From the human T2T-CHM13v2.0 reference genome, Homo sapiens: 64,000 nt of DNA. Positions 991 to 3,833 of the stretch are shown here, in pieces. The notes beneath the pieces were generated by a model. It made no database searches and had not been told where the DNA came from. It saw nothing but the letters and a program-made list of their open reading frames with translations. Each line of letters opens with the position of its first letter. Within the stretch, counting starts at the first letter, position 1. Position numbers and translations under genes: made by a program. The stretch lies in NCBI RefSeq assembly GCF_009914755.1, contig NC_060947.1. One strand, written 5' to 3'.

Positions 991-1332
991 TCTGTGTCTT
1001 CTCCTCCTCCCTTCTTCTTTCTCCTTCTTTCTCCCTTCTTCCTTCTTTCTTCTTCTTCTTGTTATCTTTGCTCACTGCAACCTCCCCTTCCTGGGTTCAA
1101 GCAATTCTTGTGCCTCAGCCTCCTGAGTAGCAGGGATTACAGGCACGCAACATCATGCCCGGCTAATTTTTGTATTTTTAATAGAGACAGGGTTTCATGA
1201 TGTTGGCCAGGTTGGTCTCGAACTCCTGGCTTCAAGTGATCCTCCCACCTCAGCCTCCCAAAGCCATGGTGCCAAGCCCCATCTGTATATTTTCTTTGGT
1301 GAAGTGACTGTTCATTTCTTTGGCCCAGTTTT

Positions 1333-1785
1333 TTTTTTATTTTTTATTTTTATTGTTTGGAATTCAGTGCAAATTTTATTAGACTACAAAAACATATCAT
1401 AGTTATTTTAGATATATTTATATGAAGTCATAAAAGCTATGATTTTTGAAAAACAGCATAAGAAATTTTTTTAATTTCTTATATAAATTAACTTTAGTGT
1501 CTTAAGGATTCAATGATACAGTTTTTAAATTTTTTAAATTGATAGCAATTGTACATATTCTTGAGGGCACATAATTATATTTCCATACATATAATTTATA
1601 GTTATCAGATCAGGGTAATTAGCACGTCCACCATCTCAAATGTTTATCATTTTTTTGTGTTGAGAATGTGCAACATCCTTCTAGCTATTTGAAACTATAT
1701 ATTGTATTATTATTAACTATAGTCATTCTACGGCGCTATAGAACACTAGAACTGATTTCTCCTATCTAGCTATAATTTTGTATCT
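1333..1785 (-). other. Probable 3'-transduced segment carried by the L1PA (unique DNA plus an older L1MA 3' end) with its own polyA
   Basis: Lies inside the TSD pair 1317-1332/3778-3793; AATAAA (-) at 1375-1380; A-tail 1329-1354. Confidence 0.75.
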
Positions 1786-3777
1786 TTTTTTTTTCTAGGG
1801 TACATGTGCACAACGTGCAGGTTTGTTAAATATATATACATGTGCCATGTTGGTGTGCTGCATCCATTAACTTGTCATTTACATTAGATATTTCTCCTAA
1901 TGCTATCCCTCCCCCAGCCCCCCACCCCACAACAGGCCCCAGTATGTGATGTTCCCCACCTTGTGTCCAGGTGTTCTCATTGATCAATTCCCACCTATGA
2001 GTGAGAACATGCAGTGTTTGGTTTTCTGTCCTTGTGATAGTTTGCTCAGAATGATGGTTTCCAGCTTCATCCATGTCCCTACAAAGGACATGAACTCATC
2101 CTTTTTTATGGCTGCATAGTATTCCATGGTGTATATGTGCCACATTTTCTTAATCCAGTCTATCATCGATGGACATTTGGGTTGGTTCCAAGTCTTTGCT
2201 ATTGTGAATAGTGCCGCAATAAACATGTGTGCATGTGTCTTTATAGCAGCATGATTTATAATCCTTTGAGTATATACCCAGTAATGGGATGGCTAGGTCA
2301 AATGGTATTTCTAGTTCTAGATCCTTGAGGAATCACCACACTGTCTTCCACAATGATTGAACTGGTTTACATTCCCACCAACAGTGTAAAAGTGTTCCTA
2401 TTTCTCCACATCCTTTCCAGCACCTGTTGTTTCCTGACTTCTTAACGATTGCCATTCTAACTGGTATGAGATAGTATCTCATTGTGGTTTTGATTTGCAT
2501 TTCTCTGATGGCCAGTGATGATGAGCATTTTTTCATGTGTCTGTTGGCTGCATGAATTTCTTCTTTTGAAAGTGTCTGTTCATATCATTTGCCCACTTTT
2601 TGATGGGGTTGTTTGATTTTTTCTTGTAAATGTAAGTTTTTTGTAGATTCTGGATATTAGCTCTTTGTCAGATGGGTAGATTGCAAAAATTTTCTCCCAT
2701 TCTGTAGGTTGCCTGTTCACTCTGATGGTAGTTTCTTTTGCTGTGCAGAAGCTCTTAAGTTTAATTAGATCTCATTTGTCAATTTTGGCTTTTGTTGCCA
2801 TTGGTTTTGGTGTTTTAGTCATGAAGTCCTTGCCCATGCCTATGTCCTGAATGGTAATGCCTAGGTTTTCTTCTAGGGTTTTTATGGTTTTAGGTCTAAC
2901 ATTTAAGTCTTTAATCCATCTTGAATTAATTTTTGTATAAGGTGTAAGGAAGGGATCCAGTTTCAGCTTTCTACATACGGCTAGACAGTTTTCCCAGCAC
3001 CATTTATTAAATTAGGGAATCCTTTCCCCATTTCTTGTTTTTGTTAGGTTTGTCAAAGGTCAAATGGTTGTAGATGTGTGGTATTATTTCTGAGGCCTCT
3101 GTTCTGTTCCATTGGTCTGTATCTGTTTTGGTACCAGTACCATGCTGTTTTGGTTACTGTAGCCTTGTATTATAGTTTGAGGTCAGGTGGCATGATGCCT
3201 CCAGCTTTGTTCTCTTGGCTTAGGATTGTCTTGGCAATGTGGGCTCTTTTTTGGTTCCATATGAACTTCGAAGTAGTTTTTTCCAATTCTGTGAAGAAAG
3301 TCATTAGTAGCTTGATGGGGATGGCATTGAATCTGTAAATTACCTTGGGCACTATGGCCATTTTCACGATATTGATTCTTCCTATCCATGAGCATGGAAT
3401 CTTCTTCCATTTGTTTGTGTCCTCTTTTATTTCGTTGAGCAGTGGTTTGTAGTTCTCCTTGAAGAGGTCCTTCACATCGCTTGTAAGTTGGATTCCTAGG
3501 TATTTTATTATCTTTGTAGTAATTGTGAATGGGAGTTCACTCATGATTTGGCTCTCTGTTGGTCTGTTATTGGTGTATAGGAATGCTTGTGATTTTTGCA
3601 CATTGATTTTTATATCCTGAGACTTTGCTGAAGTTGCTTATCAGCTTAAGGAGATTTTGGGCTGAGATGATGGGGTTTTCTAGATATACAATCATGTCAT
3701 CTGCAAACAGGAACAATTTGACTTCCTCTTTTCCTAATTGAATATCCTTTATTTCTTTCTCTGGCCTGAGTGCCCTG
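1786..3777 (-). mobile_element. 5'-truncated primate L1PA (~2 kb; ORF2 C-terminal part plus 3'UTR)
   Basis: ORF2p fragments at 3170-3601, 2333-2536 and 1984-2226 (e.g. [24 protein letters not shown]); L1PA 3'UTR G-tract. Confidence 0.95.
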
Positions 3778-3833
3778 TCTTTGGCCTAGTTTTAATTGTG
3801 TGTTTTTTTGTTTGTTTTGTTTTGTTTTGTTTT

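What the first reader, a model, noticed from the sequence alone, without database searches (positions are those of the whole stretch)
1317..3793. L1PA insertion with an ~430-bp 3' transduction from a source lacking its own polyA signal
Seen: a 16-bp direct repeat with one mismatch (tctttggcc[c/t]agtttt, 1317-1332 and 3778-3793) brackets the whole block, and the host L1M reads through when the block is removed. On the - strand the order is: truncated L1PA, short A-run (~1786-1795), an older L1MA 3' end plus unique DNA, AATAAA (1375-1380), ~20 nt, second A-tail (1329-1354), TSD. The L1PA ends at ...TACCCTAG-An and lacks the usual terminal AACTTAAAGTATAATAAA. That would force read-through to a downstream signal. 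A repeat masker would likely call these independent fragments.
Basis: partly seen in the sequence, partly recalled or inferred. Interest (0 to 1): 0.72.

Follow-up and report, generated by a model that had tools for sequence, protein, structure and literature searches.

The report
L1 insertion with chr13 3' transduction
An old, truncated L1 retrotransposon sitting backwards in a TAF1 intron carried about 430 bases copied from chromosome 13 with it when it inserted, which is a well-known and ordinary by-product of L1 copying.

Summary
On the minus strand a 16-nt target-site duplication (15 of 16 identical) brackets one composite insert. The insert is a 5'-truncated L1PA (3777-1795), an A10 run (1794-1785), a 428-nt foreign segment (1784-1357) and an A-rich tail (1356-1333). 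The foreign segment has exactly one other full copy in the genome, on contig C13 (chr13) at 29779184-29779631, with 5.6% mismatch. That locus is the parent. There the old L1 runs on upstream across the junction. Homology to X stops 18 nt past AATAAA, where X has its tail. The junction on C13 is a perfect L1 endonuclease site (GTT|AAAAGATAC). An independent L1PA on C3 (chr3) used the homologous site in another old L1. C13 carries no L1PA at the junction or in the 30 kb checked. No sibling copies exist. A 3' transduction from a source L1 that was later lost is the best reading (about 0.8). A reverse-transcriptase template-switch chimera is the main rival (about 0.1). The clipped L1PA end is real and rare (2 versus 6,664 genome matches). 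Whether it caused the read-through cannot be decided. This is a known kind of event and of low interest.

The parts
1317..1332 (-). 3' copy of the target-site duplication (minus strand AAAACTGGGCCAAAGA)
   Evidence: (D4). It directly abuts the A-rich tail.
1333..1356 (-). terminal poly(A) tail of the composite insert (20 A of 24, interrupted by C and T)
   Evidence: It starts where homology to C13 stops. C13 has T-rich DNA there instead.
1375..1380 (-). AATAAA poly(A) signal used by the read-through transcript
   Evidence: It is conserved in C13. The tail starts 18 nt after the hexamer.
1357..1522 (-). single-copy part of the transduced segment
   Evidence: There are 2 candidates in the whole genome, both scored: this place and C13:29779455-29779631 (90%).
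1523..1784 (-). 3' end of an older L1 (L1MA/L1PB-like; the family name is recalled and was not tested), part of the transduced segment
   Evidence: It is 91% identical to C13, versus 78-82% for the other 38 scored hits. The start GATAC... at 1784 is seen.
1785..1794 (-). internal A10 run between the L1PA and the transduced segment. The last 4 A can be the AAAA of the C13 target site.
   Evidence: C13 has AAAA at this point.
1795..3777 (-). 5'-truncated L1PA (1,983 nt), ending ...GTACCCTAG and lacking the usual last ~18 nt with its poly(A) signal
   Evidence: relatives at <=94% identity; the 5' end is exact at 3777; clipped 3' end.
3778..3793 (-). 5' copy of the target-site duplication (AAAACTAGGCCAAAGA). 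It is preceded on the minus strand by ...CAATT, so the target is TT|AAAA.
1799..1820 (+). 22-nt alternative TAF1 exon (hub table) inside the antisense L1PA end. The acceptor is T10-CTAG|G, built from the A10 run, and the donor is CAG|GTTTGT.
   Evidence: hub annotation table and sequence. Its use in RNA was not tested.

Best explanation
A single target-primed reverse transcription event put one read-through L1 transcript into an older L1 fragment in TAF1 intron 32, antisense to TAF1.

Inferred history:
1. An active L1PA once sat on chr13 (C13). It had inserted at GTT|AAAAGATAC inside an older L1.
2. Its transcript ran past the L1 end. It crossed 262 nt of the old L1 and 166 nt of unique DNA.
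3. The transcript was cleaved and polyadenylated 18 nt after a downstream AATAAA.
4. L1 endonuclease nicked X at TT|AAAA. Reverse transcription started on the poly(A) tail and stopped 1,983 nt into the L1PA (5' truncation).
5. A 16-nt target-site duplication formed.
6. The chr13 source was never fixed and was lost. Today's chr13 is therefore the empty allele.

Shown directly: the single event, the chr13 origin and direction of copying, the poly(A)-site end of the segment, and both endonuclease-type sites.

Inferred: that an L1PA ever sat on chr13.

Open, at roughly even odds: whether that source already lacked its last ~18 nt and poly(A) signal and so had to read through, or whether the clip arose while or after the X copy was made.
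For: One event:
- The 15-of-16 duplication abuts the tail on one side and the L1PA 5' end on the other.
- The X target is TT|AAAA (flank print).

Origin and direction:
- The 431-nt query has 2 full-length hits among 40 scored (3,668 candidates). These are itself and C13:29779184-29779631.
- The unique 168 nt has only those 2 places in the genome.
- On C13 the old L1 continues upstream across the junction. Eight of 13 other old-L1 loci align straight across it.
- Downstream, C13 has T-rich DNA where X has its A-tail.

Poly(A) site: AATAAA is conserved in both copies, and homology ends 18 nt later.

Source site:
- The C13 junction reads GATTTGTT|AAAAGATAC, a perfect TT|AAAA site.
- On C3 (chr3) an independent L1PA sits in the same orientation at the homologous point of another old L1. 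Its 14-nt duplication is AAAAGATACAAAAT. This is the configuration proposed for the lost source.
- An Alu on C3 at 171.8 Mb also used AAAAGATACAAAATTA as its target.

Age is coherent:
- X versus C13: 24 substitutions in 432 aligned columns, K2P 5.8%.
- The duplication differs at 1 of 16.
- The L1PA star-branch is about 4.2%.

Prior knowledge:
- 3' transduction is common for L1. I recall figures of 10-25% of insertions; PMC13009371 says ~25% in its abstract as shown in a search listing.
- Non-reference source elements are documented (PMC9311842, passages read).
Against: - No L1PA is at the C13 junction, nor within C13:29759200-29789199. The only L1 match there is the old L1 at 73%.
- No sibling offspring were found. 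The junction motif is unique. The clipped end occurs in only one other, unrelated insertion, on C8 (chr8). There is no third copy of the unique segment.
- The clipped L1PA end needs an extra event under any scenario.
- Five of 13 other old-L1 copies stop aligning (query 387-399) within 11 nt of the junction at 397/398, so they appear 5'-truncated there. Reverse transcriptase therefore often stops near this point. That gives the template-switch rival a reason for the same breakpoint.
- Only one human haplotype and no outgroup could be examined.
Confidence: 0.8

Rival explanations
1. Template-switch chimera. L1 proteins primed reverse transcription on a polyadenylated non-L1 transcript of the chr13 locus. 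They copied it back to ...AAAAGAUAC, then jumped to an L1PA RNA near its 3' end and copied 1,983 nt of it. No L1PA ever sat on chr13.
For: - The C13 parent locus has no L1PA, as this model expects.
- Five of 13 other old-L1 copies stop aligning (query 387-399) within 11 nt of the junction at 397/398. This suggests a frequent stop point for reverse transcriptase, where a jump could occur.
- The L1PA lacks its natural 3' terminus. A jump onto an internal A-containing site (CTAGAA) could produce that.
- Template-switch chimeras made by L1 are documented (bioRxiv 10.1101/2025.02.02.635956, passages read).
Against: - In the passages I read of that paper, the documented chimeras have L1 as the 3' (primary) partner and the other RNA at the 5' end. 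Here the order is reversed.
- A jump onto CTAGAA would leave about A4-A6, not A10.
- The C13 breakpoint is a perfect TT|AAAA endonuclease site. This model does not need that. Independent L1PA and Alu insertions used the same motif.
- 3' transduction is far more common (recalled).
Confidence: 0.11
2. Two successive insertions. A retrocopy of the chr13 transcript landed on X first, and an L1PA later inserted exactly at its 5' edge.
For: Nested repeats are common. A repeat masker would list the pieces separately, and the hub table shows only 1674-3769 masked.
Against: - The 5' copy of the duplication abuts the L1PA 5' end, not the chr13-derived segment.
- The L1PA has no duplication of its own. 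Its flanks, AAAACTAGGCCAAAGA and GATACAAAATTATAGC, are unrelated.
- The L1PA would have had to land on the exact boundary.
Confidence: 0.03
3. Variant within the transduction model, against the reader's causal claim. The chr13 source had a normal L1 end and poly(A) signal, which was simply bypassed. The ~13-18 nt clip arose by slippage during reverse transcription of the X copy or by a later deletion on X.
For: - The L1 signal is known to be weak and often bypassed (recalled: Moran 1999).
- The X and C13 copies differ by 5 small indels in about 430 nt, so small deletions happened.
- The X copy has had far more time to mutate than a short-lived source.
Against: - The clip is very rare: 2 versus 6,664 exact matches. 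Its co-occurrence with a transduction would then be a coincidence.
- The C8 (chr8) copy has CCCTAG+AAA directly against its 16-nt duplication. This suggests such a clip can arise at the moment of insertion, so a source could have been born without its signal.
Confidence: 0.4

Closest known systems
L1 3' transduction (read-through of the L1 poly(A) signal; Moran 1999, Goodier 2000 and Pickeral 2000 are recalled; PMC9311842 passages read)
   Same: L1, then an internal A-run, then unique flanking DNA from another chromosome that ends at a downstream AATAAA, then a poly(A) tail. One target-site duplication and a TT|AAAA target. The length of about 430 nt lies within the reported range (7-997 nt in PMC9311842).
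   Different: The source L1 is not present at the parent locus in this genome. The L1 part lacks its last ~18 nt, including its own poly(A) signal. The event is old and fixed (about 5.8% divergence from the parent), not polymorphic.
L1-mediated chimeric retrocopies by template switching or RNA ligation (U6/L1, Alu/L1 and others; bioRxiv 10.1101/2025.02.02.635956, passages read)
   Same: Two RNAs from unlinked loci joined in the same orientation. One duplication, an endonuclease-type target and one terminal poly(A).
   Different: In the described classes L1 is the 3' partner. Here L1 is the 5' partner and its natural 3' end is missing. An A10 run sits at the joint.
Transductions traced to non-reference or lost source elements (PMC9311842 reports a prolific non-reference source on chromosome 6, passages read)
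   Same: The parent locus is identified only through the transduced sequence, and the assembly lacks the L1 at that locus.
   Different: In those cases the source is still found in other living people. Here it would have to have been lost millions of years ago.

Membership tests
L1 3' transduction | L1 sequence followed in the same orientation by non-L1 DNA that ends in a poly(A) tail | tested here: met
   L1PA 3777-1795, A10, segment 1784-1357, tail 1356-1333.
L1 3' transduction | One target-site duplication brackets the L1 plus the extra segment, at an L1 endonuclease-type target | tested here: met
   a 16-nt repeat, 15 of 16 identical. 0 of 100 shuffles give 2 matches. The target is TT|AAAA.
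L1 3' transduction | The extra segment maps to one other locus, which is the older state | tested here: met
   the only other copy is C13:29779184-29779631. The old L1 continues upstream there, and 8 of 13 loci align across the junction.
L1 3' transduction | In the parent locus the segment ends at a poly(A) signal and cleavage site | tested here: met
   AATAAA is conserved, homology ends 18 nt later, and T-rich DNA follows on C13.
L1 3' transduction | In the parent locus the segment lies directly 3' of a source L1 | tested here: inconclusive
   there is no L1PA at the junction or in the 30 kb examined in this one haplotype. The junction is a perfect TT|AAAA site, used by an L1PA at the homologous place on C3. 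A lost, never-fixed source cannot be excluded or shown with these tools.
Template-switch chimeric retrocopy | Partners come from unlinked loci, are fused in the same orientation, and share a single duplication and one terminal poly(A) | tested here: met
   These features are shared with transduction from a lost source, so they do not discriminate.
Template-switch chimeric retrocopy | The 5' partner is copied from its natural RNA 3' end (the landing site of the jump) | tested here: not met
   the L1PA lacks the ...AACTTAAAG... terminus carried by all 10 relatives that hold the seed, and by 6,664 genome copies.
L1PA / L1MA subfamily labels | Match to a curated repeat consensus (Dfam/Repbase) | not testable with these tools
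No repeat library is held. The evidence is only similarity to genomic copies: 91-94% for the L1PA part and 78-82% for the old-L1 part.

The most novel reading that the evidence does not exclude
The block is not a transduction. It is a reverse-order template-switch chimera. L1 reverse transcriptase primed on an ordinary polyadenylated chr13 transcript. It stalled beside the G-rich tract of the embedded old L1, where other copies are often truncated. It then jumped onto an L1PA RNA just inside its 3' end. That would be an example of L1 RNA serving as the acceptor rather than the primary template.
Probability: 0.1. Interest if true: 0.4.

Novelty: new member of a known kind. Interest (0 to 1): 0.17.

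Why it matters
Mostly it does not matter much. This is one more fixed L1 3' transduction, a mechanism described since 1999-2000.

Three modest points remain.
- It marks a chr13 site where an active L1 probably once sat and was lost. It shows how such vanished sources can be inferred from an endonuclease-type breakpoint.
- It is a candidate case of an L1 that lost its own poly(A) signal and had to use a downstream one.
- It lies in TAF1 intron 32. By my coordinate transfer it is about 0.7 kb from the SVA insertion site of X-linked dystonia-parkinsonism. Its antisense A-run/CTAG junction forms the acceptor of a RefSeq-listed 22-nt alternative exon. Anyone modelling splicing in this intron should treat the block as a single composite insert.

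Tried and rejected
- Sibling or source search:
  - The exact junction motif is unique in the genome.
  - The relaxed clipped-end motif gave only one other hit, on C8 (chr8). That hit is an unrelated, 5'-inverted L1PA with its own 16-nt duplication AAAAGAGAGTGAATGA.
  - The unique 168 nt has no third copy.
  - A7+GATACAAAATTATAGC at <=1 mismatch gave 4 matches. None is a sibling.
- L1PA near the parent locus: none in C13:29759200-29789199.
- Host-L1 continuity across the empty site: the right flank is too short and T-rich. 465 of 500 shuffles scored at least as high. Only one 21-nt crossing hit was found.
- Splicing as the origin of the junction was rejected. No GT follows CCCTAG in normal L1PA ends.
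- An upstream alternative poly(A) signal in the L1PA as the cause of the clip was rejected. No AATAAA or ATTAAA lies in the 45 nt before CCCTAG.
- Literature:
  - Szak 2003 (Genome Biol) is not held.
  - The TAF1 cryptic-exon papers place TAF1-32i 5' of the SVA, outside this block.
  - A search for TAF1 + SVA + 'intron 32' + L1PA found 3 papers, 2 listed. I read passages of one (PMC11479940). The passages did not describe this insert.
- Subfamily typing was not possible because there is no repeat library. Only distances to 11 relatives were computed.

Full report
**What is in the sequence**

I read the region on both strands. On the minus strand the order is as follows.

| Feature | Window coordinates |
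|---|---|
| Flank ...CACACAATT | above 3793 |
| AAAACTAGGCCAAAGA (5' duplication) | 3793-3778 |
| L1PA | 3777-1795, ending ...GCACATGTACCCTAG |
| A10 run | 1794-1785 |
| GATACAAAATTATAGC... (foreign segment) | 1784-1357 |
| AATAAA within the segment | 1380-1375 |
| A-rich tail (20 A of 24) | 1356-1333 |
| AAAACTGGGCCAAAGA (3' duplication) | 1332-1317 |

The 16-mer occurs twice in the window at <=1 mismatch. Shuffles give a mean of 0.03, and 0 of 100 shuffles reach two matches. L1PA homology starts exactly at 3777 in 6 of 6 relatives that reach that far (11 examined). So the repeat abuts the L1PA 5' end on one side and the tail on the other. The target, read on the minus strand, is TT|AAAA. That is the L1 endonuclease preference, which I state from established knowledge.

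**Where the extra 430 nt comes from**

A whole-genome search with 1355-1785 scored 40 of 3,668 candidates.
- Two hits cover the full query: the query itself and C13:29779184-29779631, at 91% identity.
- The other 38 cover at most query positions 1-275, at 78-82%. These are generic copies of an older L1 3' end.

The last 168 nt alone have only two places in the genome, X and C13 (2 of 2 candidates).

The pairwise alignment gives 432 aligned columns with 408 matches. There are 18 transitions, 6 transversions and 5 gap events over 19 columns. That is p = 5.6% and K2P = 5.8%.

The direction of copying is clear.
- On C13 the old L1 continues upstream of the breakpoint. Eight of 13 other old-L1 loci align straight across it.
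- Downstream, C13 reads ...GAATTCCAA then T-rich DNA. X switches to its A-tail at that point, 18 nt after the conserved AATAAA.

So X holds a copy of a polyadenylated RNA from the C13 locus.

**Is there a source L1 on C13?**

No. The locus shows an uninterrupted old L1 at the junction. A BLAST of the whole X block found only two things in C13:29759200-29789199: the transduced segment and a 73% match of old-L1 ORF2.

No sibling exists either.
- The junction motif is unique in the genome.
- The clipped end plus A6 has one other hit, with an unrelated flank.
- A7+GATACAAAATTATAGC at <=1 mismatch has 4 matches, none a sibling.

**Why I still favour transduction**

The C13 breakpoint reads GATTTGTT|AAAAGATAC. 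An L1 inserted there in the sense orientation would give L1-An-AAAAGATAC..., which is what X shows.

Two of the three non-self matches are retroelement insertions at this very motif.
- On C3 at about 41.40 Mb, a roughly 3.5-kb L1PA lies in the same orientation inside another old-L1 copy, at the homologous position. Its 14-nt duplication is AAAAGATACAAAAT, and it has a normal L1 terminus.
- On C3 at 171.8 Mb, an Alu has the duplication AAAAGATACAAAATTA.

So the proposed source configuration exists elsewhere, and the site is a proven endonuclease target.

A never-fixed source is the expected fate of most active L1 copies. This is population-genetic reasoning, not a tool result. Non-reference sources are documented for living humans (PMC9311842, passages read).

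**The rival**

The main rival is a template-switch chimera. In it the C13 RNA is the primed template and L1PA RNA is the acceptor.

Points in its favour:
- The parent site is empty.
- Five of 13 other old-L1 copies stop aligning (query 387-399) within 11 nt of the junction at 397/398. That suggests reverse transcriptase often stops here, next to a G-rich tract.

Points against it:
- The described chimeras carry L1 as the 3' partner (bioRxiv 10.1101/2025.02.02.635956, passages read).
- An internal landing on CTAGAA would not give A10.
- The TT just before AAAA has no role in that model.

I put it near 0.1. Two successive insertions are disfavoured because the L1PA has no duplication of its own and the outer duplication abuts the L1PA rather than the segment.

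**The clipped L1PA end**

The clip is real and rare. CACATGTACCCTAG+A6 occurs 2 times. CACATGTACCCTAG+AACTTAAAG occurs 6,664 times, 3,336 forward and 3,328 reverse.

Of 11 close relatives, 10 hold the seed, and all 10 continue with ...CTTAAA.... Their exact forms are:

| Form after CCC | Relatives |
|---|---|
| CTAAAAC | 7 |
| CTAAACC | 1 |
| CTACAAC | 1 |
| CTAGAAC | 1 |

The only other clipped copy, on C8, is a 5'-inverted L1PA. In it CCCTAG+AAA lies directly against a 16-nt duplication. This suggests that such a clip can arise at insertion.

Equally, the clip could have arisen while the X copy was reverse-transcribed, or later on X. The two copies differ by 5 small indels. With neither source nor sibling to examine, I leave this at about even odds.

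**Age**

Three measures agree on an old, fixed insertion.
- K2P is 5.8% between X and C13.
- The duplication differs at 1 of 16 positions.
- The star-tree branch of the X L1PA is about 4.2%. Nine of the 11 relatives have branches of 1.9-2.9%, one has 2.9% (L037) and one 4.3% (L031).

With recalled primate rates of 1.1-2.2e-9 per site per year, this is very roughly 13-26 million years. No repeat library was available to test them.

**Context**

The block lies antisense in TAF1 intron 32. By the hub table, exon 33 starts at 14269.

I estimated the position of the SVA insertion site of X-linked dystonia-parkinsonism from two statements in PMC11479940 (passages read): the hg38 breakpoint chrX:71,440,502, and the TAF1 start lying 74.2 kb upstream of it. 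Combined with the hub table's gene start at -73541, this puts the SVA site near window 600-660. That is about 0.7 kb from the block. This is my coordinate transfer, not a measured alignment.

The TAF1-32i cryptic exon lies 5' of the SVA, outside the block (PMC8875906, passages read).

The hub table lists an alternative exon at 1799-1820. In the sequence it is preceded by T10-CTAG and followed by GTTTGT. Its acceptor tract is the antisense of the internal A-run.

**Verdict**

This is a genuine composite insert made in one retrotransposition event. It is best read as an L1 3' transduction from a lost chr13 source. It is a known kind of event and of low interest. Supplements of the cited papers were not opened. 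They could hold repeat annotations of this intron that I did not see.

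Noticed in passing
window 1799-1820 (+): A RefSeq-listed 22-nt alternative TAF1 exon lies inside the antisense L1PA end. Its acceptor is TTTTTTTTTTCTAG|G (the T10 is the antisense of the internal A-run). Its donor is CAG|GTTTGT. At 22 nt the exon would shift the reading frame.
   Followed up: partly
window 616-743 (-), T-run 601-612: A snoU13 copy (Rfam RF01210, 72 bits, full model 1-104) is followed on its strand by an A12 run. 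This suggests a retro-pseudogene. It matches the hub's LOC124905281.
   Followed up: partly
window about 600-660 (inferred): By coordinate transfer from PMC11479940 (hg38 chrX:71,440,502; 74.2 kb from the TAF1 start) and the hub table, the XDP SVA insertion site falls here. That is beside the snoU13 copy and about 0.7 kb from the L1 block. It was not checked by alignment.
   Followed up: no
L044 (G000:C3:41402700-41411000), minus strand: An independent L1PA of about 3.5 kb sits in another old-L1 copy at the homologous TT|AAAAGATAC site. Its 14-nt duplication is AAAAGATACAAAAT, and it has a normal L1 terminus.
   Followed up: yes
L042 (G000:C3:171799035-171802057), minus strand: An Alu is flanked by AAAAGATACAAAATTA on both sides. 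This is the same motif used as a target.
   Followed up: partly
L017 (G000:C8:139471397-139474416), minus strand: This is the only other L1PA with CCCTAG followed by A-run. It is a 5'-inverted (twin-priming-like) insertion. Its 16-nt duplication AAAAGAGAGTGAATGA lies only 3 A after CCCTAG, so it has practically no poly(A) tail.
   Followed up: yes
L003, L005, L010, L012, L015 versus L002:1486-1498: Five of 13 old-L1 3' ends picked by similarity stop aligning (query 387-399) within 11 nt of the junction at 397/398, so they appear 5'-truncated just downstream of a G-rich tract. This may be a truncation hotspot. The sample is small and no control was run.
   Followed up: partly
L002:1755-1765 versus window about 1528-1535: C13 has an AATAAA at the old L1's own end. 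The X copy lacks it through a 4-nt difference. The transcript bypassed this site, or the motif arose later on C13.
   Followed up: no
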